Shown piece after piece: positions 14,696-56,846 of a DNA stretch of 64,000 bases. Position 1 is the stretch's first letter. Each line of letters starts with the position of its first letter. The translations under genes and the position numbers were made by a program. This stretch comes from an uncultured bacterium. GTDB lineage: Bacteria; Desulfobacterota; Binatia; HRBIN30; CADEER01. The stretch lies in assembly GCA_963757755.1 (NCBI GenBank), contig CAVWTK010000004.1:445783-509782 (forward strand). Direction: 5' to 3'. The notes under the pieces were generated by a model that had not been told where the DNA came from, did not search any database, and worked only from the letters and a program-made list of their open reading frames with translations.

Positions 14696-14791
14696 GAGAA
14701 GGCAAAACGGCAAAAGGCGAAAGGCAAACATCGAAAGTCCTCGCCCGCACATTTTGCCTTTCGACTTTGCCGTTCTGCCTTTTGCCTTCTC
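14696..14791. repeat. Composite hairpin element (a), arms built from GGCAAA(A)-type subrepeats
   Basis: The left arm GAGAAGGCAAAACGGCAAAAGGCGAAAGGCAAA (14696-14728) pairs with the right arm TTTTGCCTTTCGACTTTGCCGTTCTGCCTTTTGCCTTCTC (14752-14791) in blocks of 12, 7 and 11 bp separated by bulges. It fills the batA-batB spacer. Confidence 0.7.
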
Positions 14792-14801
14792 TCGGTCGCG
14801 A

Positions 14802-15799
14802 TCATGGAAGCACCCGCAACCACGTCTGCGCCAGCACCGCCTCGCCGATGAGCAGGAGCATCCCCGCCAAAACGGCAGCCAGACGTAGATCTCGTCGTAG
14901 TCGAGATACTGCAGCCCCTCCTGGGAGGTGGTCTCCAGTTTGTCGATCTCGTCGTAGATCTGACGCAGGGTCGCGGTATCGGTGGCGCGGAAGTAGCGAC
15001 CGCCGGTCGCTTCGGCGATGTGCTGGAGCGTCTCCTCGTCGACGTCGACCGGCATGCTGACGTAGACCTTGCGGCCGAACGGATCGACCTGCGGATACGG
15101 CGCGGTGCCGCGCGTGCCGGCGCCGATGGTGTAGACGCGGTAGCCGAGCGCCTTGGCACTCTCGGCGGCGGTCATCGGCGGGACCTTGCCGGCGTTGCTC
15201 TGCCCGTCGGTGAGCAGGATGACGATCTTGCTCTTCGCCTCCGAGCTCTCCAGGCGGCCGACCGCGGTCGCCAGCGCGGAGCCGACCGCGGTGCCGTCCT
15301 CGATCATGCCGATGCGGGCGCGGTCGAGGTTGGCTGAGCAGCCAGCCGTGGTCGAGCGTCAGCGGCGCCTGCGTGTAGGGGCGCGCCGCGAAGAGCACCA
15401 GGCCGACGCGATCGTTGGGGCGCTTGTCGAGAAACTCGCGCACGACTGGCTTCACCGCTTCGAGCCGGTTGGCGCGCGTCGCCATCGAGCTGAAAGTCCT
15501 CCGCCAGCATGCTGCTCGACAGGTCGACCGCCAGCATGATGTCGATGCCCTCGGCGCGGACCTGCGTCGCGGCCTTGCCGAGCTGCGGCCGTGCGAGCGC
15601 GAGGATCAACAGACCCAGCGCCGCGACGCGCAGCGCCGGAAGCAGCCAACGCCAATGCGCCCGCCGCCCGCGGACCGACGGCGCGCACCGCCTCCATGAC
15701 CGGGAACGGAAGCGTCGGCGGAGCGTTGCGCCGCCGGCCGCGCGTCAGGAACGGCAGCAGCACGAGGAGCAGCAGCGCCCACGGATCATGCAGCTGCAC
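14802..15799 (-). pseudogene. BatA-like VWA domain protein, frame broken several times as assembled
   Basis: Fragments read as follows:
- (V)QLHDPWALLLLVLLPFL.
- ILALARPQ...GIDIMLAVDLSSSMLAEDF.
- NRLEAVKPVVREFLDKRPNDRVGLVLFAARPYTQAPLTLDHGWL.
- MIEDGTAVGSALATAV..L...AKSKIVILLTDGQSNAG...YTIGAG.
- A C-terminal TM segment ...LAGMLLLIGEAVLAQTWLRVLP with its stop at 14802. Confidence 0.7.
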
Positions 15800-16753
15800 G
15801 CGGCACCTCCTCCGGGGCGGTCGAATGCGACGAACTCGCGCGCCGGCGTCGATGGGCGCGCTCGGCATCCGAGGGCGCCGGATGGTGGCGCGCGAACTTC
15901 ACCAGGTCGGCTTCGCCGAGGAACTGGCCGAGCAGCGACGCGGTGCGCCGGCGCGAGCTGCGGCGTCGCGCTGCGCCGCCTGGAGGAACTCCTCGGTCGT
16001 CATCTCCGGCGCGCGCAGGCGGAAGCGCGCTTCGAGGTACTCGCGCACGATCGACGAGAGGCGCACGTAGAATTCCTCGTGGCGACCCTGCCTCGATCAG
16101 ATGCGCCGGCGCTGCAAGCTTGCGCCAGCGCCTCGAGGGCCAACCTCGTGCGCCGGGCGCGCCGGCACCAGCACGCCCGCCCGCGGCGCGCGTGAACCAG
16201 CGCATCAGCAGCAGGGCGATCGCCGACCAGCAATCAGCGCCGCCGGCGACGATCCACAGCAGCGGCGTGTAGTCGCGCGGCACGCGCCACCGGACCCTTG
16301 ATGTCGCGCACGTCGCTCGGCGGCGTCGCGCCGGCCGCGTCCACAGGCTCTGCACGAACACCAGGGCATCCGGCACGCGCGCGATCTCCCAGTCGCCGCC
16401 GGCGACGCGGTAGCTGGACGCTCGGCCCCGGCACGTTCTGGTTGCCGGTGAAGTAGGTCACGAGCGTGGTACCACCGTTGCACGACGGTCGTACCGCCGT
16501 CCTCGCGATTCGGCTCCTGCGCCGAAGTCCGCGACCTGGAAGTCGCCGATCTGGCGCCGATCTGCGGCATCTCGACCTCGACCCCGGTGGGGGCCGTCAC
16601 TTCGATCGTGTAGCGGAACGGTGTGCCGATGGTCAGCGGCCGCGATTCGACGGTCGCCTTGGCGGTGACCGGCGCCGGCGCATCCTCCTGCGCCCACGCC
16701 GTGGACGCGGCCACCAGCAGGAGCACCAGCGCCGCGTGGAACCCCGTGCGCAT
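15786..16753 (-). pseudogene. Signal-peptide protein with BatD-like N-terminal segment and DUF4381-like C-terminus, frame broken several times
   Basis: MRTGFHAALVLLLVAASTAWAQ...LTIGTPFRYTIEVTAPTGVEVEMPQIG, then pieces in other frames (DFQVADFGA, TYFTGNQNVPGPSVQ, a TM LLWIVAGGA..AIALLL), and finally ...LLGQFLGEADLVKFARHHP, the motif I associate with DUF4381. It overlaps the batA start. Confidence 0.45.
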
Positions 16754-16756
16754 GCG

Positions 16757-17634
16757 TCACCGCCGCTTCTCCCGCCGACGGAAGAACCGCAGCAGCGCCG
16801 TCGCGTAGGGCTGATCCGTGCGCACGGTGACGGCATCGACATCGAGGCTGCGCAGGAAGCGGTCGCGATCGTTGCGCGCCGCCGACTGCCGTCGCGCGAA
16901 CTCGGCCCGCAGGCGCGGATCCCCGGTATCGACGATGCATCGCTCGCCGCTCTCGCTGTCCTCCAGCGCGACGAGGCCGATGTCCGGCAAGGTCGTGCTC
17001 GCGCGGATCCTCGAGCACGACGGCGATGAGGTCGTGACGGCGATTGGCGACCCGCAGGGGGCGGCGCAGCTCCGGCGCGAGGAAGTCGGAGAGCATGAAC
17101 GCGACGCTGCGCCGGCGCACGACCTTCTCGAGATGGTCGAGCGCCAGCGGGATGTCGGTGCCCCGCCCCTTCGGCACGTGGTTGAGGATCTCGCGGATGA
17201 CGCGCAGGACGTGGCGCGTCGCCCTTGCGCGGCGGGACCGCCAGCTCGATGCGGTCGGTGAAGATGACGAGCCCGACCTTGTCGTTGTTGGTGATCGCCG
17301 AGAACGCCAGCAGCGCCGCGATCTCGGCGGCCAGCTCCTGCTTGAACTGGCGCACCGACCCGAAGCGCGTCGAGCCGCTGGCGTCGACGAGCAGCATCAC
17401 CGTCAGCTCGCGCTCCTCGGTGAAGCGCTTGACGTACGGCTCACCGGTGCGCGCCGTGACGTTCCAATCGATCGTGCGCACCTCGTCGCCGGGCTGATAC
17501 TGGCGCACCTCGGCGAACTCCATGCCGCGCCCCTTGAAGACGCTGTGGTATTCGCCGCCAAACAGGTCGCTGACCAGATGGCTGGTGCGGATCTGGATCT
17601 TGCGGACCGCCTTGAGCTGTTCGCGGGTCAGCAT
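16757..17634 (-). pseudogene. DUF58 domain protein (MoxR-associated), frame broken at least twice
   Basis: LFGGEYHSVFKGRGMEFAEVRQYQPGDEVRTIDWNVTARTGEPYVKRFTEERELTVMLLVDASGS... continues in other frames (GTDIPLALDHLEKVVRRRSVAFMLSDFL; DIGLVALEDSESGERCIVDTGDPRLRAEF...FFRRREKRR). Confidence 0.75.
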
Positions 17635-17683
17635 GGAACGGATGGATCAAGGACCCCGAGATGAACGATGGAGCGATGAAACA

Positions 17684-17750
17684 CGAAAGAGGAACACCCG
17701 AAGGACATCGCCCGTCTCCGATCCTTCGTCCTTCGCCCTTTCGTCCTTCG
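17684..17750. repeat. Composite hairpin element (b), arms built from CGAAGGA/TCCTTCG subrepeats (imperfect)
   Basis: Left arm CGAAAGAGGAACACCCGAAGGA (17684-17705), loop CATCGCCCGTCTCCGA, right arm TCCTTCGTCCTTCGCCCTTTCGTCCTTCG (17722-17750). It fills the moxR-DUF58 spacer. Confidence 0.5.
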
Positions 17751-17759
17751 ACCGTCTTC

Positions 17760-18749
17760 CTACGGCACCGGCACGCCGTCGAAGATGCGCTGGATGATCG
17801 CGTCGGAGGTCAGCTCTTCGGCCTCCGCCTCATACGAGATCGTCACGCGATGGCGGAGCACGTCGGCGCCGATCGACTTCACGTCCTGGGGCGTGACGTA
17901 GCCGCGGCCGTTCAGGAAGGCGTACGCCTTCGCGGCGAGGGTGAGGTAGAGCGTGGCGCGCGGTGAGGCGCCGTACTGAATGTACGGCGCGAGATCGAGC
18001 TTGAAGGCCTGCGGCTCGCGCGTCGCCATGACGAGGTCGATGACGTACTCCTTCACCTTGTCGTCGAGGTAGATCGCGTCGACGAGGCCGCGCATGCGGA
18101 CGATGTCGGCGACGCTGGTCACCGGGTTGACGCGCGTGTCCGGGTTGGTCAGCGCCATGCGGTCGAGGATCTGGCGCTCCTCCTCGCGCGACGGGTAGCC
18201 GACCGACAACTTGAGCATGAAGCGGTCGACCTGCGCCTCGGGCAGCGGGTACGTGCCCTCCTGCTCGATCGGATTCTGGGTGGCGAGCACCAGGAACGGC
18301 ATCGGCAGCGGAAAGGTCTCGTCGCCGATCGTCACCTGGCGCTCCTGCATCGCCTCGAGCAGCGCGCTCTGCACCTTGGCCGGCGCGCGGTTGATCTCGT
18401 CGGCGAGGATCAGGTTGGCGAAGATCGGCCCCCGCCGGGTCGTGAAGACTCCCTCGCGCGGGTTGTAGATCAGCGTGCCGATGAGGTCGGCGGGCAGCAG
18501 GTCGGGCGTGAACTGGATGCGGTGAAAGCTGGCGTCCACGGCCTGCGCCAGCGTCTTCACCGACAGGGTCTTGGCCAGCCCCGGAACGCCCTCGAGCAGG
18601 ATGTGGCCGTTGGCCAGCAAGCCGATCAGCAGGCGGTCGACCACATACCGCTGGCCGACGACGACTTTCGCGATTTCCTCGCGCAGCCCGTAGACGAACC
18701 CTGAGGCGTCCTGCACCTGCGCGGCGATCGATTGTACGTCTCTGTCCAT
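17760..18749 (-). CDS. moxR: MoxR-family AAA+ ATPase
   Basis: 329 aa. VVGQRYVVDRLLIGLLANGHILLEGVPGLAKT (Walker A), LILADEINRA (Walker B), and the QNPIEQEGTYPLPEAQVDRF sensor region. GGAG lies 7 nt upstream of the ATG. Confidence 0.92.
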   Translation of the reverse strand: MDRDVQSIAAQVQDASGFVYGLREEIAKVVVGQRYVVDRLLIGLLANGHILLEGVPGLAKTLSVKTLAQAVDASFHRIQFTPDLLPADLIGTLIYNPREGVFTTRRGPIFANLILADEINRAPAKVQSALLEAMQERQVTIGDETFPLPMPFLVLATQNPIEQEGTYPLPEAQVDRFMLKLSVGYPSREEERQILDRMALTNPDTRVNPVTSVADIVRMRGLVDAIYLDDKVKEYVIDLVMATREPQAFKLDLAPYIQYGASPRATLYLTLAAKAYAFLNGRGYVTPQDVKSIGADVLRHRVTISYEAEAEELTSDAIIQRIFDGVPVP

Positions 18750-18888
18750 GTCCGCTCCGTTGGTTTCAACCGAATAGCTTTGCCGACGGCGATTGAGGGG
18801 GTCAAGTCACGCCGACGGGCGGCCGCACCGCCGACGCCATCGCGCGGAGACCCGGGGGCCGGAATCGGGGTTGACCAGGGGCGAGCGG

Positions 18889-20160
18889 TCAGGCCGGGCA
18901 GGAGCCGAGCGCGACGACGACCGCGGCGATGATCTCGTTGATGGTGACGCTGCCGTCGCCGTTGGTGTCGCCGGCCGGGCAATCGGTCGCGGGCGCGGTC
19001 CCGAGGGCGATGTTCACCATCACGATGAGCTCGTCGATCCGCACGACGCCGTCGCCATTGCAGTCGCCGGGACAGGCGCCGCCCGGCGTGACCGTCGCGA
19101 GCGGCGATCCGGTCGCGGTGCCGGTGACGGTGGCGATCGGGCCGGTGGGCGTTGCCGCCGCCGTTGTCGGCGGCGATCCGGTCACCGTGGCAGTCGCGGT
19201 GGCGACCGGCCCGGTGGCCATTGCCGTCGCCGTTGCCGGCGGTGATCCGGTCACTGTGGCAGTCGCGGTGGCGACCGGCCCGGTGGCCGTTGCCGTCGCC
19301 GTTGCCGGCGGCGATGCGGTGGCGGTGGCGATCGGCGTGGTCGCAGTCCCGGTCGCCGTGGCCATCATCGACGTGGCGGTCGGTGTCGGCGTCTCCGGCT
19401 GCGCCACGATCAGCAGTCCCTTCAGGTCGGCGGGTGGCCAGCCAGCCGCCTGCAGAGAACCGTCGTAGGCGATCTCCCAATTGTCCGACTCCGGGTCGTA
19501 CTCGAGGACATCCTCGTCATCGAAGGTGACCGGCGGGTTGCCGATGAGACCGCTGCCGTCGAACGAGAGGAACAGGTGACCGCGATGATTGACGTAGGCG
19601 GCATCCAGGTCGAGCCCCGGTGCCACACCCGCCGCGGCGGCGTCGAAGAACATCGAGAACGCCGTCCCCTCGTAGAGCACCAGATCACCCGGTGCCACGG
19701 TCAGATCGCCGAGCTTCACGGTGACGTCGAACGACATGACCAGGGACTCCCCTTGAGCGAACGACAACGCGTCCACCAGGACGCCGTCGGGAATGCCCGC
19801 CGCCGCCGCGTCGAGAAATGGATGGTAGGTCGAGCCGCTCAGACGGACGACGTCGCCGGCACGGGCGGTGAAGTCGCCGAAGTCGACGGTCGTATCGAAG
19901 GTCAACAGATCATCGCCGTCGCCGATGTTCACGAATGCGGTGATCCGCGTGCCTTCGGGGATTTCGCCGAGCTGGACGCGGGTGAGATTGCCCATCAGGT
20001 CGTCGACGGCGGCCTCGTGCGGCGAGACGGTGACGCCGTTCAGCTTGAGGGTGATGTCGGGCACGAACCAGAGCGACAGCAGCGGCGTCGGCGCCGCCGT
20101 CGCAGCCGTGACGGCGGCGAGCACCGCCAGCGCCAGGGCGAGTCGAAGGCCGTGCCTCAT
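18889..20160 (-). CDS. Secreted repeat protein with Thr/Pro/Ala linker and C-terminal dockerin-like double repeat
   Basis: In-frame ATG at 20160 gives the signal peptide MRHGLRLALALAVLAAVTAATAAP. It is followed by three repeats of about 50 aa (LLTFDTTVDFGD.., LVMSFDVTVKLGD.., LFLSFDGSGLIGN..), a TATATG linker, and a C-terminal CPGDCNGDGVVRIDELIVMVNIALG...CPAGDTNGDGSVTINEIIAAVVVALG. Confidence 0.7.
   Translation of the reverse strand: MRHGLRLALALAVLAAVTAATAAPTPLLSLWFVPDITLKLNGVTVSPHEAAVDDLMGNLTRVQLGEIPEGTRITAFVNIGDGDDLLTFDTTVDFGDFTARAGDVVRLSGSTYHPFLDAAAAGIPDGVLVDALSFAQGESLVMSFDVTVKLGDLTVAPGDLVLYEGTAFSMFFDAAAAGVAPGLDLDAAYVNHRGHLFLSFDGSGLIGNPPVTFDDEDVLEYDPESDNWEIAYDGSLQAAGWPPADLKGLLIVAQPETPTPTATSMMATATGTATTPIATATASPPATATATATGPVATATATVTGSPPATATAMATGPVATATATVTGSPPTTAAATPTGPIATVTGTATGSPLATVTPGGACPGDCNGDGVVRIDELIVMVNIALGTAPATDCPAGDTNGDGSVTINEIIAAVVVALGSCPA
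19099..19330 (-). repeat. Tandem 69-nt (23-aa) coding repeat in the linker
   Basis: Units start at about 19099, 19168, 19237 and 19306 (cggcgg[c/t]gatccggtcac[c/t]gtggcagtcgcggtggcgaccggcccggtggcc[a/g]ttgccgtcgccgttgc). They encode TGSPPATATA.ATGPVATATATV repeats. Confidence 0.85.
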
Positions 20161-20213
20161 GGCATAGCCGCGAGATGCGTCATTATCGCGCTCAGTCCGC
20201 CGCCCAAGGCCGG

Positions 20214-21017: not shown

Positions 21018-21150
21018 CGATCCTCCGTCGAACCTTCACGCGTCGCGCGCACCGAACCGCACACGGCGCAGCGCGACCAGGCCCTCAAGTCGGCAACCGG
21101 GGGCGGGACTCTGGAAGGGTGCGCGCCGCGAGTCAAGCGGCGCGCGCTGG

Positions 21151-22367: not shown

Positions 22368-22378
22368 GCGGCCCCCCT

Positions 22379-22804: not shown

Positions 22805-22875
22805 CAACGTTCTCCGCTCAACCCGCGCCTTCGCGGGCCACCATGTCAATTTGAGGCCAGGTCGGCAACCGCTGG

Positions 22876-22903: not shown

Positions 22904-22911
22904 CTACGCCC

Positions 22912-25792: not shown

Positions 25793-25801
25793 GCTCACGG
25801 A

Positions 25802-25833: not shown

Positions 25834-25837
25834 CGCG

Positions 25838-37573: not shown

Positions 37574-37581
37574 CCGAGCCG

Positions 37582-37643
37582 TCACCACAGAGAAGCCCAG
37601 AGACACCCCGGGCCTCCGTGTTCCTCTGTGGCCTCTGTGGTGA
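37582..37643. repeat. Composite hairpin element (c), CACAGAG/CAGAGA subrepeats
   Basis: Left arm TCACCACAGAGAAGCCCAGAGACAC (37582-37606), loop CCCGGGCCTCC, right arm GTGTTCCTCTGTGGCCTCTGTGGTGA (37618-37643). The outer 11 bp are perfect and the inner part has bulges. Confidence 0.65.
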
Positions 37644-37666
37644 GAGGATGCGTCACGGCACTCTCC

Positions 37667-38680: not shown

Positions 38681-38715
38681 TCGGCTGTAGACGATTCCCT
38701 CGGTGGCGCCGGGCT

Positions 38716-41292: not shown

Positions 41293-43491
<2,199 letters not shown>

Positions 43492-43496
43492 GGGCT

Positions 43497-45266: not shown

Positions 45267-46712
45267 CTACACCTGCGGGCTGGCCGGCAGGTCGGTGTGG
45301 CCCATGAGGAACTGGTCGACGCCGCGGGCGCACTCGCGGCCTTCCCAGATCGCCCAGACCACCAGCGACTGGCCGCGGCGGGCGTCGCCACAGGCGAAGA
45401 CGCCGGGCTCGCTCGACATGTAGCTGTCGTCGACGGCGACGTTGCTGCGCTCGTCGGTCTTCAGGCCGAGGTCGGTGACCGGGCCGTAGTGCTCGGGGCC
45501 GAGGAAACCGAGCGCCAGCAGCACGAGGTCGGCTTTGAGGCGGAACTCGCTGCCGGCGACCTCCTGCATCTGCGGGCGGCCGTTGTCGCCGGTGACCCAC
45601 TCCAGGCGCACCGCCTCGAGCTCGGTCACCTTGCCGTTGGCGCCGATGAACCGCTTGGTGTTGATGCTCCAGTCGCGAATGACGCCCTCCTCGTGCGAGC
45701 TCGAGGTGCGCAGGATCATCGGCCAGTTCGGCCACGGCATGTCCGGCGTGCGCCCGTCGGGCGGCTGCGGCAGGAGCTCGAACTGGTGCACCGAGACCGC
45801 GCCATGCCGATTCGAGGTGCCGAGGCAATCGGAGCCGGTATCGCCACCGCCGAGGATGACGACGTGCTTGCCGGTGGCGGTGAGCTGGTCGGCCACCGTG
45901 TCGCCGGCGACAACCTTGTTCTGCTGCGGCAGGAAGTCCATCGCGAAGTGGATGCCGTCGAGCTCGCGGCCGGGCACCGGCAGGTCGCGCGGCTTGGTCG
46001 CGCCGGCGGCGATGACGACGGCGTCGAAGTCGCGTTTGAGGTCGGCCGTGGTCACGTCGACCCCGACGTCGACGCCGGCTTTGAACGTCACGCCCTCGGC
46101 TTCCATCTGCTGCATGCGGAAGTCGATGAGGTGCTTCTCCATCTTGAAATCGGGAATCCCGTAGCGCAGCAGGCCGCCGATGCGGTCGGCGCGCTCGAAC
46201 ACGGTGACGAGGTGCCCGGCGCGCGCCAGCTGCTGCGCGCAGGCCAGGCCCGCGGGACCCGAGCCGATGACCGCGACGTGCTTGCCGGTGCGCTGCGGCG
46301 GCGGCTGCGGCACGACCCAGCCATCCTTCAGCGCGTGGTCGATGGTCTGCTTCTCGATCTGCTTGATGGTGACGGGATCGTTGTTGATGTTGAGGACGCA
46401 CGCCTCTTCGCACGGCGCCGGACAGATGCGCCCGGTGAACTCGGGGAAGTTGTTGGTCGAGTGCAGCCGGTCGATGGCCGCGCGCCAGCGCCCGCGATAG
46501 ATGAGGTCGTTCCAGTCGGGGATGATGTTCCCGAGCGGGCAGCCCTTGTGGCAGAAGGGAATGCCGCAATCCATGCAGCGCGCCCCCTGCGCCTGCAGCG
46601 CCGCGTCGTCGAACTTGCCCTCCAGCTCGCGCCAGTCCCGGAGCCGTTCCGCGACCGGCCGCCGCGCCGGCAGCGCGCGATCAATTTCGAGGAATCCCGT
46701 GATCTTTCCCAT
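45267..46712 (-). CDS. gltD: Glutamate synthase small subunit (NADPH)
   Basis: ATG at 46712. [11 protein letters not shown], the Fe-S cluster ligands [13 protein letters not shown]...[13 protein letters not shown] and GGGDTGSDC. The frame is intact for 481 aa. Confidence 0.94.
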
Positions 46713-46730
46713 CGTCCGAACCCAATTCCT

Positions 46731-46811
46731 TTCAACGCAGAGACGCAGAGATCGCCGAGTCTCGCAGAGATCCCTCCGCGTTCTCCGCGTCCTCGGCGTC
46801 TCTGCGTTGAA
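46731..46811. repeat. Composite hairpin element (d), CGCAGAGA subrepeats
   Basis: TTCAACGCAGAGACGC (46731-46746) is perfectly complementary to GCGTCTCTGCGTTGAA (46796-46811). The interior is built from CGCAGAGA(T)/CGCCGAG units and their complements. It fills the gltB-gltD spacer. Confidence 0.7.
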
Positions 46812-46819
46812 TCTTTTCT

Positions 46820-51348
<4,529 letters not shown>

Positions 51349-51362
51349 GTGACGTTTCCTTC

Positions 51363-51905
51363 TCACCCGGTGGATTTCGCCTGCAGAAGAATCTTGGTCA
51401 TCGACTTGCGCGACCGCCGCTTCACCGGCACCTCCGGCAGCACGGCCAGTTGGCGCTCGGTGTGCGTCGACAACACCACCATCGTCTCGGTCCGCGTCAC
51501 CCCCTCGATCGCGCGCAGGTGGCTGATCAACTCCTCGAGGCTCGAGGTGTCCGCCGTGCGCACCTTCAACAGCAACGTGTAGCCGCCGGTGACGTGATGG
51601 CACTCGAGCACCTCGGGCCGACCGGCGATCCGCTCCTCGACATCGCGGATGCCGCTCGGATGCGAGGTCAGCACGCCGATGAAGGCACCGATGTCGTGCC
51701 CCAGCTTGCGCGGGTCGATGAGCGCCCGATAGCCGACGATCACGCCGCTCTCCTCGAGCTTCTTGATGCGCTCGATCACCGCCGGCGCGGACAGCCCCAC
51801 CCGCTCGCCGATCTTGGCGAGCGGCGTCTTACAATGCTCCTGGAGCAGGGCGAGGATCCGAACGTCGATCTCGTCGAGATCAGGCTGTTCCTCATCGAAT
51901 TTCAT
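51363..51905 (-). CDS. Lrp/AsnC family transcriptional regulator
   Basis: [47 protein letters not shown] (HTH) plus an RAM/ACT-like C-terminal domain. Its stop is 14 nt upstream of the gltB start. Confidence 0.88.
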
Positions 51906-52247
51906 AAGGTGTACGAGGGGGGATAGTCGAAGTCAGAACTGGATTCAAGACTTCCGCCGAAGGAAATTCGGTCATTCGTGAAATGAACAGAATGAATCGT
52001 TGGTCCTGATGGGGCGCGGATGTGAGGCCGGCCGACCGCCGCCGGTTGCCTATGCGGGTTTTCCACAATGTCGCTCGCCCGCCGTGACGCGCTACGCTGC
52101 GCCGCAGACAGTGCAATTGAGGTTTGACTTAAGGCACCGGTAGAACCTACACGAATGACAGTAGGCCGAAATCGTCGGGTGGTAGCTGCCGCGTCTGGGG
52201 CGACGCGGGCAGGACGTTCGCGAGTGCAGAATCAGGGGAGGGGACAC

Positions 52248-53264
52248 ATGCAGATGCGGTGGGCAGGACTCATCTTCGGGGGCACCATGGCGGCGATTGT
52301 CGCGGTGGTGACGTTGGCCGCGCCGCGCGCCGACGCCATGTGCTGCGTCTGCCGCGGCGGTGGCTGCAATGCCGGCTTCTGCATCGACAGCCTCGCCGGC
52401 GCCGTCGCGTGCACCCAGCTCTGCTCCAACGCGAACTGCCCGGACGTGGTGTTCGACAACACCGACAGTTGCAGCGGCGGCTGCAGCGTCGTGGCGGACC
52501 TGCCGACCGCCACCCCGAGTTGGACGCCGACGCAGACCTGGACGCCGAGTCAGACGCCCACGGAGACGCCGACCGCCAGCTTCACCGCGACCACGACCAG
52601 CACCCCGACGATCACCAACACGCCCACCATCACCAACACCGCGACGGTTACGCCCACGCCGAAGCAGTGCTGTCAGAACGACGCCATTCCGGCGTGCGGC
52701 CCGGTCGTCTCGCCGTTCACCTGCAACACGCCGGGCGTCTTCATCAACAACGCCGAATGCAACGGCTCGATCGGCCGCTGCGTGAGCCCGACGATCACGC
52801 TGACACCGTCGATGACGCCGACGCCCACCTCGACGCCGACCAGCACGCCGACGCGGACCGCCACGTCGACGCCGAGCGACACCCCCAAGGTGCCGACGAG
52901 CGTCGATCCGTACAAGTGCTACCGGATCAAGACGACGCTCGGAAAACCCAAGCCGGCGAAGCGCGTGGTCAAGTTGATCGATCAGTTTGGCGCCGAGTTC
53001 AACGCGGTGCTGCGCCCGTTCCTCGAGTGCAACCCCGCCGTGCGCACGGACGGCACGGCGACGCCGGGCACGCTGGCGAACCCGACCGTCCACCTCGTCT
53101 GCTACAAGATCAAGACGGAGAAGAAACCCGGCAACGACGACCTGAAGCTGCCGCGCAAGGTGATGATCCGCGACGAGGTCGAGGCCGATGTGGAATCCAC
53201 CGAGTTCTACGACGTCATGAAGTCGGATCTCGTGTGCATGCCGGCCATCAAAGAGCTGCTCTGA
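52248..53264 (+). CDS. Secreted protein: 10-Cys 'MCCVC' domain, Thr/Pro linkers, internally duplicated C-terminal domain
   Basis: ATG at 52248 follows GGGGAGGGG. The signal peptide ends ...APRADA. The mature part begins [53 protein letters not shown]. It is a paralog of the N-terminus of 59767..60951. Confidence 0.65.
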   Translation: MQMRWAGLIFGGTMAAIVAVVTLAAPRADAMCCVCRGGGCNAGFCIDSLAGAVACTQLCSNANCPDVVFDNTDSCSGGCSVVADLPTATPSWTPTQTWTPSQTPTETPTASFTATTTSTPTITNTPTITNTATVTPTPKQCCQNDAIPACGPVVSPFTCNTPGVFINNAECNGSIGRCVSPTITLTPSMTPTPTSTPTSTPTRTATSTPSDTPKVPTSVDPYKCYRIKTTLGKPKPAKRVVKLIDQFGAEFNAVLRPFLECNPAVRTDGTATPGTLANPTVHLVCYKIKTEKKPGNDDLKLPRKVMIRDEVEADVESTEFYDVMKSDLVCMPAIKELL

Positions 53265-53280
53265 TCCGGGCCCGGCAATC

Positions 53281-53308
53281 GGCGGGCGCCGCTCCGGCGG
53301 CGCCCGCC
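53281..53308. terminator. Perfect 12-bp GC hairpin between convergent genes
   Basis: GGCGGGCGCCGC (53281-53292), loop TCCG, GCGGCGCCCGCC (53297-53308). Confidence 0.45.
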
Positions 53309-53312
53309 AAGC

Positions 53313-54197
53313 CTAGTCCAGCAACGCCGCACCGATAACGCCGGCCGAGTCGCCGAGCTGGTGCCGGCGGATCGGCGTGCGCAGCTCGTCGTTGAAGACG
53401 CAGCGCGCGACCGCCTCACGACCCGCGCCGTAGAGCTCGTCGATCATCGACAGGCCGCCGCCCAACACGACGACGTCGGGATCGAGGATGTCGATGACAT
53501 TGGCGAGCGCGCGCCCGAAGTGCGCGATCAGCTCACCCACCACCTGCGAGGCGAGCCCGTCGCCGGCACGAGCGCGCGCGACGATCGCCGCCGTGTCCGC
53601 CGCGTCGCCACCGCGCTCGCGATAGCGGCGCTCGACGGCTGGTCCACTGATCAGCGCCTCGACGCAGCCGCGGTGGCCGCAGTAACAGTGCGGGCCCTGC
53701 GGATCGATGACGTGGTGGCCCCACTCGCCGGCGATGTGTTGCGGCCCCGACCACAGGCGCCCGTCGATCACCAGTCCGCCGCCGACGCCGGTGCCCATGA
53801 TCACGCCAAAGACGAAGCGGCCACCCTGTCCCGCCCCGCGGCGCGCCTCGGCCAGCGCGAAGCAGTTCGCGTCGTTCTCGACCCGTAGGGGTCCGCCGAT
53901 GCGACGCGCCAGGTCGGCGGGCAGGTCACGGCCGTTCAGGCAGGTGGTGTTCGAGTTCTTCATCAGGCCGGTACGGCTGGAGATCGCCCCCGGGGTCCCG
54001 ATGCCGACACTGACGGCGTCGGGATGAGCGGCGCGGAGCCGGTCGACGAGGGCACCGACCGTCTCGACGATGTGGGCGTAGCCGCGGCCGCTGTCCGTGG
54101 CCACCCGTTGGCGCGCGAGCACCTGCTCGCTGGCGTCGTCGAGCACGGCGCCCTCGATCTTGGTCCCGCCGAGGTCGACCCCGATACGGACCGGCAT
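53313..54197 (-). CDS. ROK family sugar kinase (NagK/Mak-like)
   Basis: IGVDLGGTKIEGAVLD, ENDANCFALAE, and the Zn motif GHH..D..GP.CYCGHRGCVE. Confidence 0.85.
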   Translation of the reverse strand: MPVRIGVDLGGTKIEGAVLDDASEQVLARQRVATDSGRGYAHIVETVGALVDRLRAAHPDAVSVGIGTPGAISSRTGLMKNSNTTCLNGRDLPADLARRIGGPLRVENDANCFALAEARRGAGQGGRFVFGVIMGTGVGGGLVIDGRLWSGPQHIAGEWGHHVIDPQGPHCYCGHRGCVEALISGPAVERRYRERGGDAADTAAIVARARAGDGLASQVVGELIAHFGRALANVIDILDPDVVVLGGGLSMIDELYGAGREAVARCVFNDELRTPIRRHQLGDSAGVIGAALLD

Positions 54198-54322
54198 GCC
54201 GGCTGTCTGACAAGTCGCCGCCGGCGATGCAATCGCGGCAGCCCTGGCCGGCCGTATGGAGATGGGCGAAGGGGTTGGATATAGAACGGGGCTTGTCGTC
54301 TCGGCACGGAGGAATCGCCGTC

Positions 54323-55009
54323 ATGTCCAACTCGCGCGGTCGCACCCTGCTCATCGTCATCATCCTGCTCTCCGCGATCCTGCTCGCGGCCGGCAACATC
54401 CTCTGTCATGCCCTGGTGGTACAGGAGCTGACCGGCACCACCCCGCCGGTCGAGGGTGGCCTGATGCAGCAGATCATCCATTCGATCGGCCAGTCGGTCG
54501 GCCAGAACCCGCACTTCGTCTGGTTCTTCAGCGGCGCCCCGTTGCTGATGGGCGTGATCCTCGCCCTGCTCGTCGGGATGCAGGGCGGCGGGACGACCGC
54601 GGCGGCGGCGAGCTCGGCGGGCGGCGACGGCGCCAGCGAGGGCGCGCTGCGCCTGCTCGCCGTTCTCCAGAAGGAGGGCCGCCTGGTGGACTTCCTCGAG
54701 GAGGACATCCAGCCGTACACCGACGCGCAGGTCGGTGCCGCCGTGCGCGCGATCCACTCCGGCTGCCGCAAGGCGCTGCACGAACGCATGGAGATCACCC
54801 GCATCTTCGGCGAGGAGGACGGTGCGTCGGTCGAGGTCGCCTCGGGATTCGATCCGGCGGCGGTGCGTCTCACCGGCAACGTGCACGGCCAGCCGCCGTT
54901 CCACGGCGTGCTCCAGCACGGCGGCTGGCGCGCCGCGCACGTCTCGTTGCCGAAGACGGCGGGCGTCGACAACGCGATCCTCGCGCCGGCCGAGGTCGAG
55001 ATCGCCTAG
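54323..55009 (+). CDS. DUF2760-like membrane-anchored protein
   Basis: GGAGG lies upstream of the ATG at 54323. There are two N-terminal TM helices, then ALRLLAVLQKEGRLVDFLEEDIQPYTDAQVGAAVRAIHSGCRKAL...GFDPAAVRLTGNVHGQPPFHGVLQHGGWRA...ILAPAEVEI. I recognise this as the DUF2760 core. Confidence 0.72.
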   Translation: MSNSRGRTLLIVIILLSAILLAAGNILCHALVVQELTGTTPPVEGGLMQQIIHSIGQSVGQNPHFVWFFSGAPLLMGVILALLVGMQGGGTTAAAASSAGGDGASEGALRLLAVLQKEGRLVDFLEEDIQPYTDAQVGAAVRAIHSGCRKALHERMEITRIFGEEDGASVEVASGFDPAAVRLTGNVHGQPPFHGVLQHGGWRAAHVSLPKTAGVDNAILAPAEVEIA

Positions 55010-55045
55010 GCAATCAGCGCAGCACGCACAGAGGACCACAGAGCT

Positions 55046-56773
55046 TTGGCAGCCCGTTACGTAGTCGGCATCGACCTCGGCACCACCAACTCAGTCGTCG
55101 CCTATGCGCCGGTGGACGGCAGCGACGCGATCCGCGTTCTGCCTGTCCCGCAGCTGGTCGCGCCCGGCACGACGGAGTCGGCGCCGCAGCTGCCGTCGTT
55201 CCTCTACCTGCCGGCGGCCGGGGAGAGCGCATCGGGCGACGCCATCGTCGGCGCCTACGCGCGCCAGCGCGCGAGCGAGGTGCCGGACCGCGTCATCGCC
55301 TCCGCGAAGTCGTGGCTCTCCTACGCCGGCCCCGATCGCGACGCGGTGCTGCTGCCGTGGGGCGCGACCGACGACGTGCCCAAGCTGTCGCCGGTCGCCG
55401 CGTCGGCGCGCTACCTCGCCCACCTCGCCGACGCCTGGAACACGGCGTTCCCGAAGGATCCGCTCGCCAAGCAGGACGTGCTGCTGACGGTGCCGGCGTC
55501 GTTCGACCCCGCCGCGCGCGAGCGCACGGTGCAGGCCGCCGAGGACGCCGGGTTGCCCACGGTCACGCTGCTCGAGGAACCGCAGGCGGCGCTCTACGCC
55601 TGGATCGACGCCGCCGGCGAGGACTGGCGGCGGCAGGTGACGGTCGGCGACGCGCTGCTGGTCTGCGACGTTGGCGGCGGCACCTCGGACTTCAGCCTGA
55701 TCGCCGCCCGCGATGAAGGCGGCAGCCTCGAGCTCGAACGGGTCGCGGTGGGCGAGCACATCCTCCTCGGCGGCGACAACATGGATCTCGCGCTCGCCCA
55801 CGCGGTGCGCGAGCGCCTCGCCGCCGACGGGACCGCGCTCGATGCCTGGCAGCTGCGCGGTCTGGTCGCGAGCTGTCGCGCCGCCAAGGAGCAGCTGCTC
55901 GGCACCGACCCGCCGGCGAGCCTGCCGGTCGCGATTCTCGGCCGCGGCCGCAAGGTGGTCGGCGGTGCGTTGCGGGCCGAGGTCGCGCGTGACGACGCGA
56001 CGACGTCGCTGGTCGACGGCTTCTTCCCCCGCTGCGCGCTCGGCGATCGCCCGCAGACGCCGCGCCGCACCGGCCTGCAGGAGCTCGGCCTGCCCTACGC
56101 CGCCGATGCCGCCGTCACGCGCCACCTGGCGAGCTTTCTCAGCCGCAGCGCCGATGCCGCTCCCGCCCCGACGGCGGTGCTCTTCAATGGCGGCGTCATG
56201 CGGGCCCCGGCGCTGCGCGAGCGCCTGCTGGCCGTGCTCGCCGGCTGGTATCCCGGGGGCGCCGTCCGCGCGCTCGGCGGCGCCGACCCAGAATTCGCCG
56301 TCGCGCGCGGCGCCGCCTACTACGGGCTCGCCCGGCGCGGCCGCGGCGTGCGCATCCGCGGCGGCATCGCTCGCACGTTCTACGTCGGCATCGAGACCGC
56401 CATGCCCGCCGTGCCCGGCATGCGGCCGCCGATCAAGGCGTTGTGCGTGGTCCCGCACGGCCTCGAAGAGGGCAGCGCGGTCGAGCTGCCGTCGCAGGAG
56501 CTCGCGCTGGTGGTCGGTGAGCCGACGGAATTCCGCTTCCTCAGCTCGACGACGCGCCGCGAGGATCATCCCGGCCTGCTCCTCGACAGCTGGAGCGCCG
56601 ATGAGATCGCCGAGCTGCCGCCGCTGCACACCACGCTCGAGTGGACCGGGCACGAGGGCGCCGTCATCCCCGTCCACCTCGAAGCCGACGTCAACGAGCT
56701 CGGCATCCTCGAGCTGCGCTGCGTCAGCCGCGACGGGCAGCGGTGGAAGCTCGAGTTCAACGTCAGGACATAA
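55046..56773 (+). CDS. Atypical Hsp70-like ATPase (575 aa, no canonical DnaK substrate-binding domain)
   Basis: The actin/Hsp70 NBD motifs are VGIDLGTTNS, LTVPASFD, DVGGGTSDFS, LLGGDNMD and LFNGG. The C-terminal region of about 150 aa is unlike the DnaK SBD but is shared with the next gene. Confidence 0.85.
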   Translation: MAARYVVGIDLGTTNSVVAYAPVDGSDAIRVLPVPQLVAPGTTESAPQLPSFLYLPAAGESASGDAIVGAYARQRASEVPDRVIASAKSWLSYAGPDRDAVLLPWGATDDVPKLSPVAASARYLAHLADAWNTAFPKDPLAKQDVLLTVPASFDPAARERTVQAAEDAGLPTVTLLEEPQAALYAWIDAAGEDWRRQVTVGDALLVCDVGGGTSDFSLIAARDEGGSLELERVAVGEHILLGGDNMDLALAHAVRERLAADGTALDAWQLRGLVASCRAAKEQLLGTDPPASLPVAILGRGRKVVGGALRAEVARDDATTSLVDGFFPRCALGDRPQTPRRTGLQELGLPYAADAAVTRHLASFLSRSADAAPAPTAVLFNGGVMRAPALRERLLAVLAGWYPGGAVRALGGADPEFAVARGAAYYGLARRGRGVRIRGGIARTFYVGIETAMPAVPGMRPPIKALCVVPHGLEEGSAVELPSQELALVVGEPTEFRFLSSTTRREDHPGLLLDSWSADEIAELPPLHTTLEWTGHEGAVIPVHLEADVNELGILELRCVSRDGQRWKLEFNVRT

Positions 56774-56777
56774 CTCC

Positions 56778-56846
56778 TTCACCACGGAGGCACGGAGACA
56801 CGGAGATCGTGGCCTCGTCTCCGTGTCTCCGTGCCTCCGTGGTGAA
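56778..56846. repeat. Composite hairpin element (e): perfect 29-bp inverted repeat of CACGGAG subrepeats
   Basis: TTCACCACGGAGGCACGGAGACACGGAGA (56778-56806), loop TCGTGGCCTCG, TCTCCGTGTCTCCGTGCCTCCGTGGTGAA (56818-56846). The two arms are exact reverse complements. It fills the spacer between the two Hsp70-like genes. Confidence 0.9.

What the first reader, a model, noticed from the sequence alone, without database searches (positions are those of the whole stretch)
14696..56846. Five composite hairpin elements built from tandem 7-10-mers, all between co-directional genes of apparent operons and all in the same + strand orientation
The five elements are at 14696-14791 (batA|batB), 17684-17750 (moxR|DUF58), 37582-37643 (secreted protein|LLM oxidoreductase), 46731-46811 (gltB|gltD) and 56778-56846 (Hsp70-like 1|2).

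- Each is an inverted repeat whose arms are themselves short tandem subrepeats: GGCAAAA, CGAAGGA, CACAGAG/CAGAGA, CGCAGAGA and CACGGAG.
- Three share the termini TTCAMCRCRGAG...CTCYGYGKTGAA. The loops share a CCTC(C/G) core.
- All five sit between co-directional genes inside apparent operons. The convergent gene ends in this window instead carry plain GC hairpins (3457, 9996, 25802, 38716, 53281).
- All five have the purine-rich arm 5' on the + strand. Three lie in minus-strand operons and two in plus-strand operons. Orientation therefore tracks the chromosome strand and not transcription.

The strand pattern hints at a DNA-level mechanism, such as REP/RAYT-like or replication-strand-biased propagation. 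With n=5 this could still be chance, at about 1 in 16.
Basis: seen in the sequence. Interest (0 to 1): 0.7.

Follow-up and report, generated by a model that had tools for sequence, protein, structure and literature searches.

The report
Widespread palindromic repeats built from heptamers
Four of the five hairpins are real, and three belong to a previously uncatalogued palindromic repeat family found in many bacterial phyla and in phages, but the claimed fixed strand orientation follows automatically from their being palindromes.

Summary
E1, E3, E4 and E5 fold far better than shuffled sequence (z -4.8 to -13.8). E2 is weak (z -1.6 and -2.5). All five lie 0-10 nt behind the stop codon of the upstream gene of a co-directional pair.

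The orientation argument fails. An inverted repeat with a purine-rich 5' arm has one on both strands. A covariance model scores E3-E5 about equally on both strands.

E3-E5 belong to one sequence family: foot TTCACC or TTCAAC, arms of CRCRGAG units. One scan found at least 118 genomic loci against about 4 expected by chance. These span at least 12 phyla, and 16 phage contigs also matched. No Rfam family matches.

E1 and E2 share only the architecture, two inverted arrays of 7-9-nt units. That architecture is common with many unrelated units and was noted before in Xanthomonas and Geobacter.

The same gltB|gltD spacer in relatives holds a related hairpin, an unrelated TGACCGG hairpin, a plain hairpin, or nothing. 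In relatives the family arms also occur inside ~195-240-nt MITEs.

Best reading: MITE/REP-like palindromic repeats that turn over at DNA level. As RNA they form stem-loops without a U-tract between cistrons. The mobilising enzyme is unknown.

The parts
56778..56846 (.). E5. A perfect palindromic repeat with foot TTCACC..GGTGAA. Each arm is CACGGAG x3 with an 8-nt period, and the loop is 11 nt. It lies 4 nt after the TAA stop of Hsp70-like gene 1 and 8 nt before the ATG of gene 2.
   Evidence: Sequence. Arms are 29 nt and 100% complementary. Tandem repeat period is 8. Fold energy is -64.7 kcal/mol, z -13.8. The family model scores 70.6 and 69.6 bits on the two strands.
46731..46811 (.). E4. A family member with foot TTCAAC..GTTGAA and units CGCAGAG, CGCCGAG and CGCGGAG. 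It fills most of the 107-nt gltB|gltD spacer. It lies 8 nt after the gltB stop and 18 nt before the gltD ATG; both genes are on the minus strand.
   Evidence: Sequence. Inverted repeat. Fold z -8.2 and -8.7. Model scores 59.5 and 57.5 bits. Orthologous spacers compared.
37581..37644 (.). E3. A more decayed family member with foot GTCACC..GGTGAG and units CACAGAG and CCCAGAG. It lies 7 nt after the TGA stop of the GH123-N-like gene. The monooxygenase gene probably starts at ATG 37667.
   Evidence: Sequence. One mismatch to the terminal pattern at each end. Fold z -5.2 and -4.8. Model scores 32.4 and 35.4 bits.
14696..14791 (.). E1. A hairpin of inverted heptamer arrays with units GGCAAAA and GGCGAAA. 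It shares the architecture but is not a member of the CRCRGAG sequence family. It lies 10 nt after the stop of the batA-like VWA gene on the minus strand.
   Evidence: Sequence. Tandem repeat period 7 in both arms. Fold z -5.0 and -5.6. No model hit at E <= 10. A similar GGCGAAA-unit element sits in a moxR|DUF58 spacer of an unrelated metagenome contig, L194.
17684..17761 (.). E2. A TCCTTCG x5.6 tandem array at 17722-17761 that runs up to the moxR stop codon. A decayed purine-rich partner lies at 17684-17708. It is a weak hairpin and not a family member.
   Evidence: Sequence. The tandem array is reported on one arm only. Fold z -1.6 and -2.5. It is absent from the top 30 of the folding scan. 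No model hit. CGAAAGG-type units occur at the same gene junction in L198.
45267..51397 (-). The gltB (46820-51397) and gltD (45267-46712) operon that hosts E4.
   Evidence: Pfam domains Glu_synthase, GATase_2 and GXGXG for gltB; Fer4_20 and Pyr_redox_2 for gltD.
55046..59627 (+). Two Hsp70-like genes that host E5: 55046-56773, and 56855-59627. The second is split into two overlapping ORFs.
   Evidence: Pfam HSP70 for both genes, and DUF3731 at the C-terminal end of the second.
13487..18749 (-). The moxR (17760-18749), DUF58 (16633-17634), batA-like VWA (stop at 14802) and batB-like (about 13487-14617) operon that hosts E2 and E1. The batA-like and batB-like reading frames are interrupted by frameshifts.
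   Evidence: Pfam AAA_3, DUF58, VWA and VWA_2. Translations.

Best explanation
What it is:
- E3, E4 and E5 are copies of a widespread, non-coding, palindromic intergenic repeat.
- Each arm starts with a foot, TTCACC or TTCAAC, followed by two to four CRCRGAG units spaced 7-9 nt apart. The other arm is the reverse complement. The centre varies from 5 to about 95 nt.
- E1 and E2 are built the same way from unrelated 7-nt units, and E2 is decayed. They belong to a broader, generic class: inverted pairs of short-unit tandem arrays.

How it works (inferred):
- These elements behave as DNA-level repeats of the MITE/REP kind. They appear, are replaced and are lost in intergenic spacers.
- They are tolerated mainly in the few bases behind stop codons.
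- They are found alone, nested in one another's centres, or as modules of longer MITEs.
- Unit number probably changes by slippage, and the arms are kept matched by a copying process.
- Being palindromes they have no orientation, so they fit operons on either strand.
- In mRNA they fold into 20-30-bp stem-loops without a U-tract. Their most likely effect is as intercistronic barriers to 3' exonucleases or as double-stranded RNase substrates, not as terminators.

The enzyme that spreads them is unknown.
For: Shown:
- Family membership. The covariance model hits only E5, E4 and E3 in the window.
- Spread. My calculation with uniform base composition gives about 4 expected by chance in 596 Gb. 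The interiors, which the pattern did not specify, carry the same units.
- Hosts. Isolates are included: Bacteroides gallinarum, Azospirillum rugosum and Methylibium rhizosphaerae. Sixteen viral-contig loci also match, and in the two examined (L123, L126) the copies lie among genuine phage morphogenesis genes.
- E5 and L114 share identical 29-nt arms in unrelated contexts.
- Density. Five hits in 98.7 kb of close relatives, against 3 in about 540 kb of unselected metagenome loci.
- Turnover at one orthologous site, the gltB|gltD spacer:
  - window: CGCAGAG-type units
  - L135: a related hairpin
  - L136: a short CACAGAG x2 hairpin
  - L137: an unrelated TGACCGG-unit hairpin
  - L140: plain GC-rich sequence
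  - L141: a 26-nt spacer
- L141 also has the two Hsp70-like genes overlapping by 4 nt where the window has E5.
- Modular mobility. L135 carries two ~195-nt palindromic MITEs with family arms and the same centre. L137 carries one with a different centre. At the ROK gene's 3' end, L135 has the MITE where the window and L137 have plain hairpins. The Sulfuricellaceae copies sit inside ~240-nt MITEs bounded by terminal inverted repeats. Nested hairpins occur in L126 and L123.
- Generic architecture. Many hairpins with unrelated 7-8-nt units occur in the same loci. Ten of 27 expanded moxR|DUF58 spacers hold 6-10-nt tandem arrays, against 0 of 27 coding controls.
- Position. About 38 of 118 copies have an ORF of at least 130 codons stopping 0-13 nt away. 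Context counts are co-directional 49, convergent 24, divergent 9.
- Pairing constraint. 95.3% of cells are paired, with 72 compensatory cells against 24.6 in shuffles.
- No terminator-like site in the sense direction at any of the five.

Inferred: mobility itself, the RNA-level effect, and slippage with arm matching.
Against: - No target-site duplication, autonomous element or transposase was found. A search for far-apart arm pairs gave nothing convincing. Forty window ORFs have no transposase domain.
- Sequence conservation across so many phyla is unusual for MITEs and REPs, which are normally lineage-specific. It is not explained.
- The 26-nt 'empty' gltB|gltD spacer of L141 contains ACGCGAGAG, which resembles the unit. 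It may therefore be a remnant, or a local seed for growth in place, rather than a true empty site.
- Four relatives keep some kind of hairpin at that site, which could instead reflect selection for structure.
- Gene contexts in the 118 loci come from a crude home-made ORF caller.
- Some assignments of metagenome-assembled genomes to phyla may be binning errors.
- No expression data are available.
Confidence: 0.6

Rival explanations
1. Selected RNA structures. The hairpins are functional intercistronic mRNA elements, maintained at particular gene junctions by selection and evolving in place. Possible roles are translational coupling or uncoupling, differential cistron stability, or processing sites. 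Under this reading the repeat-family resemblance is secondary.
For: - A hairpin of some kind is kept in the gltB|gltD spacer in the window, L135, L136 and L137, although its sequence and even its unit differ.
- The elements start 0-10 nt after stop codons. A terminating ribosome would therefore open the foot of the stem, and in E5 the 3' foot lies 8 nt from the next ATG.
- Compensatory changes are strong.
- In E1, E2 and E4 the sense RNA is 5 kcal/mol more stable than the antisense.
Against: - There is no excess of G.U over A.C mismatches on the sense strand across the family, 35:35, and no loop polarity.
- About 29% of copies lie between convergent genes, where there is no downstream cistron.
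- Identical arms occur in unrelated contexts and phyla, inside MITEs and in phage genomes.
- For E3 the antisense strand is the more stable, and E5 shows no difference.
- A DNA-level arm-copying process would also produce the compensatory changes.
Confidence: 0.2
2. Growth in place without mobility. Each hairpin arises locally, by slippage duplication of a 7-9-nt segment of the spacer plus intrastrand template switching that copies one arm onto the other. Similar units in different genomes would then be convergent, for example derived from Shine-Dalgarno-like GGAG or AGGA segments that every spacer contains.
For: - Units are very diverse, and periods are sharply 7, 8 or 9 nt (24, 11 and 14 of 55 strongly periodic arms).
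- Direct-only arrays occupy the same kinds of spacer.
- Many units contain GGAG or AGGA.
- The L141 spacer contains ACGCGAGAG and CCAATCC. These match the window's unit and the reverse complement of its right flank GGATTGG.
- Heptamer simple-repeat excess in bacterial intergenic DNA is documented but unexplained (PMC4692102, PMC4679880).
Against: - It cannot explain at least 118 loci sharing a 12-nt foot-plus-unit sequence when about 4 are expected by chance.
- It cannot explain identical 29-nt arms in unrelated genomes.
- It cannot explain multiple copies with the same cargo and flanks within one genome.
- CACAGAG units are not Shine-Dalgarno-like.
- It may still account for changes in unit number, and for E1 and E2.
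Confidence: 0.14
3. The elements are REP/RAYT-like and inserted in one orientation relative to the chromosome or replication strand.
For: - CCTC is present in 4 of 5 loops on the + strand.
- The minus strand folds better in E1-E4.
- GC skew has the same sign across the window.
- Nested insertion into hairpin centres would suit a mechanism that acts on single-stranded DNA.
Against: - The arm-polarity argument follows automatically from palindromy.
- Four of four loops has a two-sided probability of about 1 in 8.
- In E3-E5 the loop motif looks like a partial arm unit.
- There is no GTAG or CGTC tag.
- The arms are tandem direct repeats, not REP-type imperfect palindromes.
- No Y1 or RAYT domain occurs in the 40 window ORFs scanned.
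- Asymmetric composite copies occur in both orientations within one genome.
- Replication-linked C-to-T bias explains the small stability asymmetry equally well.
Confidence: 0.05
4. Chance or low-complexity artefact of GC-rich DNA, or an assembly artefact.
For: - Tandem Repeats Finder lists 123 short arrays in this 70% GC window.
- The window carries frameshifts that suggest a noisy assembly.
- E2 alone is compatible with chance.
Against: - No shuffle out of 200 folds as well as E1, E3, E4 or E5.
- The same family occurs in isolates and in metagenome-assembled genomes from many independent projects, always in intergenic positions.
- Orthologous sites in independent assemblies carry related elements.
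Confidence: 0.01

Closest known systems
Inverted pairs of heptamer tandem repeats in Xanthomonas (GGGAATC repeats; Rehm et al. 2015, PMC4692102), and tandem-heptanucleotide 'global regulator binding sites' drawn as paired strands in Geobacter metallireducens (PMC2700814)
   Same: The architecture is the same. Two arrays of a 7-nt unit lie in convergent orientation on opposite strands in intergenic DNA and can form stem-loops. Xanthomonas has 70-75 such pairs per genome, and the repeat type is usually preserved between related species.
   Different: The units differ. None of the window's five units is G-tract-rich, so the G-quadruplex explanation proposed for Xanthomonas does not apply. Those reports concern single lineages. 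The CRCRGAG family here keeps its sequence across many phyla.
REP, BIME and REPIN elements with their RAYT transposases (Enterobacteria, Pseudomonas)
   Same: They are short palindromic extragenic repeats. They lie behind gene 3' ends and inside operons, are combined into mosaics with other motifs, and are known to stabilise upstream mRNA (established knowledge).
   Different: REPs carry a 5' GTAG or CGTC tag and are 20-40-nt imperfect palindromes, specific to a species or genus (PMC3733652, abstract seen). These elements have a TTCACC foot, 25-30-nt arms made of tandem units, and a cross-phylum distribution. No RAYT gene has been seen.
Palindromic MITEs such as the Correia elements of Neisseria, and Nezha of cyanobacteria
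   Same: They are non-autonomous, consist of inverted repeats with a variable centre, occur in many copies in intergenic DNA, are co-transcribed, and form RNA hairpins. Correia elements are RNase III substrates (my own knowledge).
   Different: No target-site duplication and no parent insertion sequence were found. The arms are arrays of heptads. The host range is far wider than for any MITE I know of.
Short tandemly repeated repetitive (STRR) heptamers of cyanobacteria, and TAACTGA direct repeats (PMC4679880)
   Same: They have 7-nt units, lie in intergenic DNA close to gene ends, show a patchy cross-phylum distribution that suggests horizontal spread, and have an unknown mechanism.
   Different: Those are direct arrays with a polarity relative to the downstream start codon. 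Here the arrays are paired in inverted orientation and show no polarity.
Integron attC sites
   Same: They are folded hairpins recognised by structure, with very variable sequence and short conserved feet. The E4 right end GTTGAAT fits GTTRRRY, and its left end TTTCAAC fits RYYYAAC at 6 of 7 positions (my reading).
   Different: Most family members have TTCACC..GGTGAA, which does not fit. There is no cassette array and no integrase. The flanking genes are housekeeping operon genes.

Membership tests
CRCRGAG palindromic repeat family (defined here by model R1) | A significant match to the covariance model built from 37 members found in other genomes | tested here: met
   E5 scores 70.6 bits, E4 59.5 bits and E3 35.4 bits. 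Nothing else in the window scores below E = 0.01. E1 and E2 do not match.
CRCRGAG palindromic repeat family (defined here by model R1) | Foot TTCAMC, at least two CRCRGAG units per arm, and complementary arms | tested here: met
   E4 and E5 match exactly. E3 has one mismatch at each end. This feature is not met by E1 or E2.
Inverted pairs of short-unit tandem arrays (the architecture class) | Both arms are tandem arrays of a 6-10-nt unit, in inverted orientation, in intergenic DNA | tested here: met
   Tandem Repeats Finder reports periods of 7-9 nt in both arms of E1, E4 and E5, and in one arm of E2 and E3. All five are intergenic.
REP / REPIN (RAYT-mobilised) | A conserved GTAG or CGTC tetranucleotide at the 5' end of the palindrome | tested here: not met
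   The feet are TTCA, GTCA, GAGA and ACAC. The family consensus is TTCACC.
REP / REPIN (RAYT-mobilised) | A cognate RAYT (Y1 transposase) gene in the genome, usually flanked by REPs | not testable with these tools
   Only 64 kb of the genome is available. Forty ORFs of the window were scanned against Pfam without any transposase hit.
MITE | Terminal inverted repeats, and multiple copies at unrelated loci | tested here: met
   Three copies in the window, 5 in 98.7 kb of relatives, and at least 118 loci elsewhere. L135 has two copies with the same 94-nt centre.
MITE | A target-site duplication flanking the element | tested here: inconclusive
   No direct repeat is evident in the flanks of 118 copies, or at the filled versus empty orthologous sites. 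The boundaries are uncertain.
MITE | A related autonomous element that encodes a transposase and has the same ends | tested here: inconclusive
   No convincing arm pair separated by kilobases was found in about 1.2 Mb of loci. Whole genomes could not be scanned.
Intrinsic (Rho-independent) terminator | A GC-rich stem-loop followed directly by a T/U run on the transcribed strand | tested here: not met
   No terminator-like site in the sense direction at any of the five. The only call is inside the 3' arm of E4, on the antisense strand, and the total number of calls is at chance level.
Any Rfam 15 RNA family | A match at or near a family's gathering score | tested here: not met
   No gathering-level match in the window. 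Family members in 8 loci from 6 phyla give only sub-threshold matches to eukaryotic miRNA-precursor hairpin models.
Integron attC | RYYYAAC and GTTRRRY core sites, a cassette array, and an integron integrase | tested here: not met
   Only E4 approximates the core sites. The family consensus TTCACC..GGTGAA does not fit them. The flanking genes are gltB and gltD and the like.

The most novel reading that the evidence does not exclude
The CRCRGAG hairpin is a pan-bacterial mobile module, also carried by phages. Its heptad arrays would be binding sites for a widely conserved, possibly housekeeping, protein. It would spread through single-stranded hairpin intermediates, preferentially into the centres of other hairpins and into the bases behind stop codons. 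The same machinery would generate the long-unexplained excess of heptamer arrays in bacterial intergenic DNA.
Probability: 0.15. Interest if true: 0.85.

Novelty: new variant of a known kind. Interest (0 to 1): 0.55.

Why it matters
- Short palindromic intergenic repeats such as REPs and MITEs are normally confined to a species or genus. Here a family keeps a 12-nt foot-plus-unit sequence from Bacteroides to Azospirillum, Acidobacteriota, Chloroflexota, Planctomycetota and phages, yet it matches no Rfam 15 family.
- If confirmed, something common to very different bacteria must recognise or propagate it.
- It also ties together scattered, unexplained reports of heptamer arrays: cyanobacterial STRR, Xanthomonas GGGAATC, Geobacter, and TAACTGA repeats. 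It gives a concrete model, with filled and empty orthologous sites, for testing how such arrays arise.
- In practice, these 20-30-bp stem-loops sit inside operons directly behind stop codons. They are likely to affect mRNA processing and gene calling.
- For the scan itself, the lesson is that arm composition cannot define the orientation of a palindrome.

Tried and rejected
- Rfam at gathering threshold on the window, and by E-value on 8 family loci: only unspecific miRNA-hairpin matches.
- Full-text literature search for the arm sequences: only primer coincidences. A word search with CACAGAG found nothing.
- Exact-protein look-ups for MoxR and for the 100%-identical GltD, meant to find the source contig: not on record. 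The nearest named GltD homologues are 'Candidatus Binatia', so the taxon is only inferred.
- L114, which has arms identical to E5, was tested as a possible orthologous locus. Only the element matches.
- Sense-strand G.U excess as a mark of RNA-level selection: absent, 63:62 in a crude count and 35:35 for isolated mismatches.
- Loop base skew relative to the upstream gene: absent.
- Purine-rich 5' arms among hairpins with other units are 30:12. The non-periodic control hairpins show the same 2:1 ratio, so this says nothing specific.
- Search for an autonomous element as arm pairs far apart: nothing convincing.
- Orientation of the asymmetric Sulfuricellaceae composites against local GC skew: uninformative. 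It revealed instead that they lie inside a MITE bounded by terminal inverted repeats.
- The metagenome scan with MoxR returned only 61-71% identical relatives, not close ones. I used it as an unselected sample of moxR|DUF58 junctions.
- Adapter or assembly artefact was considered and rejected, because the elements occur in isolate genomes and at conserved intergenic positions.

Full report
**1. The observation**

- E5 (56778-56846) is a perfect palindrome with 29-nt arms. E4 (46731-46811) has 29-nt arms that are 86% complementary.
- Tandem Repeats Finder reports 7-9-nt periods in both arms of E1, E4 and E5, and in the 3' arm only of E2 and E3.
- In a 90-nt sliding fold of the whole window, corrected for GC content, E5 and E4 rank first and second and E1 fourth, behind the hairpin at 38706. 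E3 is in the top 25. E2 is not in the top 30.
- Against 200 dinucleotide-preserving shuffles the z-scores (sense / antisense) are E1 -5.0 / -5.6, E2 -1.6 / -2.5, E3 -5.2 / -4.8, E4 -8.2 / -8.7 and E5 -13.8 / -11.1.
- Four of the five are therefore real hairpins. E2 is mainly a TCCTTCG array with a decayed partner.

| Element | Upstream gene | Downstream gene | Strand |
|---|---|---|---|
| E1 | batA-like VWA | batB-like | minus |
| E2 | MoxR | DUF58 | minus |
| E3 | GH123-N-like | luciferase-like monooxygenase | plus |
| E4 | GltB | GltD | minus |
| E5 | Hsp70-like | Hsp70-like with DUF3731 | plus |

Every element begins 0-10 nt after the stop codon of the upstream gene. I read this together with the ORF ends. 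None is followed by a T-run in the sense direction, and the terminator scan calls none of them in that direction.

**2. The orientation argument**

The reverse complement of [arm A]-loop-[arm A'] is [arm A]-loop'-[arm A']. A palindrome whose 5' arm is purine-rich on the + strand therefore has a purine-rich 5' arm on the minus strand as well. The statement that all five have the purine arm 5' on the + strand is true, but it says nothing about orientation.

Only the loop and the arm mismatches can carry polarity.
- CCTC is present in four of five loops on the + strand. That has a two-sided probability of about 1 in 8. In E3-E5 the motif resembles a partial extra 3'-arm unit, CTCYGYG.
- The covariance model built below scores both strands nearly equally.
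- One small asymmetry exists. The minus strand folds 2.5-5 kcal/mol better in E1-E4. The + strand has negative GC skew over nearly the whole window. Replication-linked C-to-T bias is a sufficient explanation for four data points. This is an inference.

**3. A cross-phylum sequence family (E3-E5)**

I ran a single scan of one genome per species (596 Gb) with TTCAMCRCRGAG-N30-60-CTCYGYGKTGAA.
For uniform base composition I calculate about 4 chance matches.
- The interiors, which the pattern did not specify, show the same design throughout: two to four CRCRGAG units per arm at 7-9-nt spacing and an A+T-rich centre.
- By record title the hosts include Acidobacteriota, Chloroflexota, Planctomycetota, Verrucomicrobiota, Lentisphaerae, Chlamydiae, Bacteroidota, Gemmatimonadota, Armatimonadota, Binatia, Desulfobacterales and several classes of Proteobacteria.
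- Isolates are included: Bacteroides gallinarum DSM 18171, Azospirillum rugosum and Methylibium rhizosphaerae.
- Sixteen viral-contig loci also match. In the two examined, L123 and L126, the copies lie among bona fide portal, prohead protease and head-tail connector genes.
- On an alignment of 37 members, 95.3% of cells pair, and 72 cells show changes on both sides against 24.6 in shuffles.

A covariance model from that alignment gave these results.
- In the window it finds E5 (70.6 bits), E4 (59.5) and E3 (35.4), and nothing else below E = 0.01. E1 and E2 do not match.
- In sequence not selected for hairpins it finds 5 copies in 98.7 kb from close relatives of the source, and 3 in about 540 kb of diverse metagenome contigs.
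- No Rfam 15 family matches, either at gathering level in the window or by E-value on members from six phyla. There, only eukaryotic miRNA-precursor models give sub-threshold hairpin matches.
- Text searches for the arm sequences found nothing relevant.

**4. A generic architecture (E1, E2 and many others)**

An unbiased hairpin scan of all fetched loci finds many hairpins whose arms are tandem arrays of unrelated units.
- Examples of units are AAGTGAG, ATCAGTT, GGGATTG, GTTTCAAA, GACGGTA, GTGTTTTG, CACGAAT and GAGTGCT.
- Among strongly periodic arms the periods are 7 nt (24 arms), 8 nt (11) and 9 nt (14). Other periods are rare.

I also examined 77 moxR|DUF58 junctions from diverse metagenomes.
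- The median spacer is 23 nt, and 14 junctions overlap by 4 nt.
- Of the 27 spacers of at least 40 nt, 10 contain 6-10-nt tandem arrays. None of 27 length-matched coding controls does.
- L198 has CGAAAGG-type units like E2. L194 has GGCGAAA units like E1.

This architecture has been seen before.
- Xanthomonas has 70-75 inverted pairs of GGGAATC arrays per genome (PMC4692102).
- Geobacter metallireducens has families of tandem heptanucleotides displayed as paired strands (PMC2700814).
- An excess of heptamer simple repeats in bacterial intergenic DNA is noted but unexplained.

**5. Behaviour over evolutionary time**

The window's GltD is 100% identical to a protein on a 903-kb contig held by NCBI and ENA. 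The nearest named homologues are 'Candidatus Binatia'. I compared the orthologous gltB|gltD spacer across relatives:

| Source | GltD identity | Spacer | Content |
|---|---|---|---|
| Window | 100% | 107 nt | E4 |
| L136 | 93% | 54 nt | short CACAGAG x2 hairpin |
| L135 | 90% | 119 nt | related but diverged CGCAGAG-type hairpin |
| L137 | 89% | 110 nt | hairpin of TGACCGG units, unrelated in sequence |
| L140 | 86% | 87 nt | plain GC-rich sequence |
| L141 | 83% | 26 nt | no hairpin |

- In L141 the two Hsp70-like genes overlap by 4 nt where the window has E5.
- L135 carries two ~195-nt nested palindromes. Their inner arms are the family arms and their 94-nt centres are alike. L137 has one with the same outer and inner arms but a different centre.
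- At the 3' end of the ROK gene, L135 has this MITE where the window and L137 have plain hairpins.
- In a Sulfuricellaceae metagenome-assembled genome, nine copies lie inside ~240-nt MITEs bounded by CAGGGTAAATTTGTTC inverted repeats, in both orientations.
- In phage contigs the family hairpin sits in the centre of another hairpin made of CGCAAAG units, and that composite is tandemly repeated every 149 nt.
- E5 and L114 have identical 29-nt arms, but their flanks are unrelated.

**6. Position and polarity in the family**

- With a crude ORF caller, 49 copies lie between co-directional genes, 24 between convergent genes and 9 between divergent genes.
- About 38 of 118 have an ORF of at least 130 codons ending 0-13 nt away. 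In several convergent pairs both stop codons are 5-7 nt from the element.
- The elements therefore favour gene 3' ends, not operon interiors as such.
- Oriented by the upstream gene, wobble-type mismatches are 35 on the sense strand against 35 on the antisense strand. Loops show no A-T or G-C skew.

**7. Interpretation**

Shown:
- E3-E5 are members of a large, sequence-conserved family of palindromic repeats.
- E1 and E2 share only the architecture.
- Elements at a given site are gained, replaced and lost among relatives.
- The family arms occur as modules of longer MITEs and in phage genomes.
- No polarity is detectable.

Inferred:
- The elements propagate at DNA level like MITEs or REPs, by an unknown enzyme.
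- Unit number changes by slippage, and the arms are kept matched by copying.
- Once transcribed, the 20-30-bp stems without a U-tract act as exonuclease barriers or double-stranded RNase substrates between cistrons.

Weaknesses:
- No target duplication, parent element or transposase was found. Forty window ORFs lack transposase domains.
- The L141 'empty' spacer contains ACGCGAGAG, which resembles the unit, so remnant or seed scenarios remain open.
- Persistence of some hairpin at the gltB|gltD junction could reflect selection.

**8. Verdict**

Its distinctive claim, orientation tied to the chromosome strand, rests on a symmetry error. The five elements are not one family. The remaining puzzle is how one hairpin sequence is kept across so many phyla and phages, and what produces heptad-array palindromes in general. 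That puzzle is of moderate to good interest.

Noticed in passing
window 13487-15868 and 56855-59627: Several genes are broken by frameshifts. The batA-like VWA domain is split over two frames and returns to the first frame at its C-terminus. The batB-like ORF alternates between sensible and nonsense stretches. The second Hsp70-like gene appears as two overlapping ORFs, 56855-58276 and 57843-59627. This suggests indel errors of a long-read assembly rather than pseudogenes.
   Followed up: partly
window 5146-5226: ARAGORN calls an 81-nt tRNA-Trp inside a predicted hydrolase ORF at 4464-5639 on the minus strand. The Rfam tRNA model finds nothing in the window at gathering level, so the call is probably false.
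   Followed up: partly
window 19101-19329, 12849-13129 and 60310-60655: There are longer tandem repeats inside ORFs: a 69-nt unit repeated 3.3 times at 87% identity, a CTG-rich array with an 18-57-nt period, and 6-66-nt periodic GTCGCC-type arrays. They are presumably repetitive protein segments.
   Followed up: no
L126 6340-6776 and 3560-3700 (viral contig IMGVR_UViG_3300036768_001781): A family hairpin is nested in the centre of a second hairpin whose arms are CGCAAAG and CGCCAAG units. The composite is repeated three times at a 149-nt period, next to phage portal and Mu-F-like genes.
   Followed up: partly
L135 3227-3420 and 12746-12940; L137 15002-15200: These are ~195-nt fully nested palindromic MITEs in Binatia-like relatives. 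The outer arms are AGCCTYGAT..GACAAAACA, the inner arms are the CRCRGAG family arms, and the centres are themselves palindromic and differ between genomes.
   Followed up: partly
L141 9975-10000: The 26-nt gltB|gltD spacer of the most distant relative reads CCAATCC-ACGCGAGAG-CTCGAGCACG. ACGCGAGAG resembles the E4 unit. CCAATCC is the reverse complement of the GGATTGG that follows the hairpin in the window, L135 and L136. It could be a remnant of an element or a local seed for one.
   Followed up: partly
L144-L223 (moxR loci from metagenomes): Expanded spacers behind moxR in unrelated bacteria often hold direct-only arrays of 7-8-nt units. Examples are GTGAGAA in L163, GGGTYTC in L181, and TTCAGTR with CCAAAAA in L165. 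L204 holds a lone CACAGAG arm without a partner. Direct and inverted arrays seem to be two states of one phenomenon.
   Followed up: partly
window E1-E4, and the whole window: The minus strand of E1-E4 folds 2.5-5 kcal/mol better than the plus strand, and GC skew is negative on the plus strand in 7 of 8 bins. This is compatible with replication-linked mutation bias leaving G.T-type mismatches on one strand.
   Followed up: no
L017 6999-7146: A family hairpin carries the same ~25-nt extra segment, CCTTCGACTCCGCTCAGGGCAGG, in mirror position in both arms, and a further repeat in its centre. Either a palindromic element was inserted into its centre, or one arm was copied onto the other.
   Followed up: no
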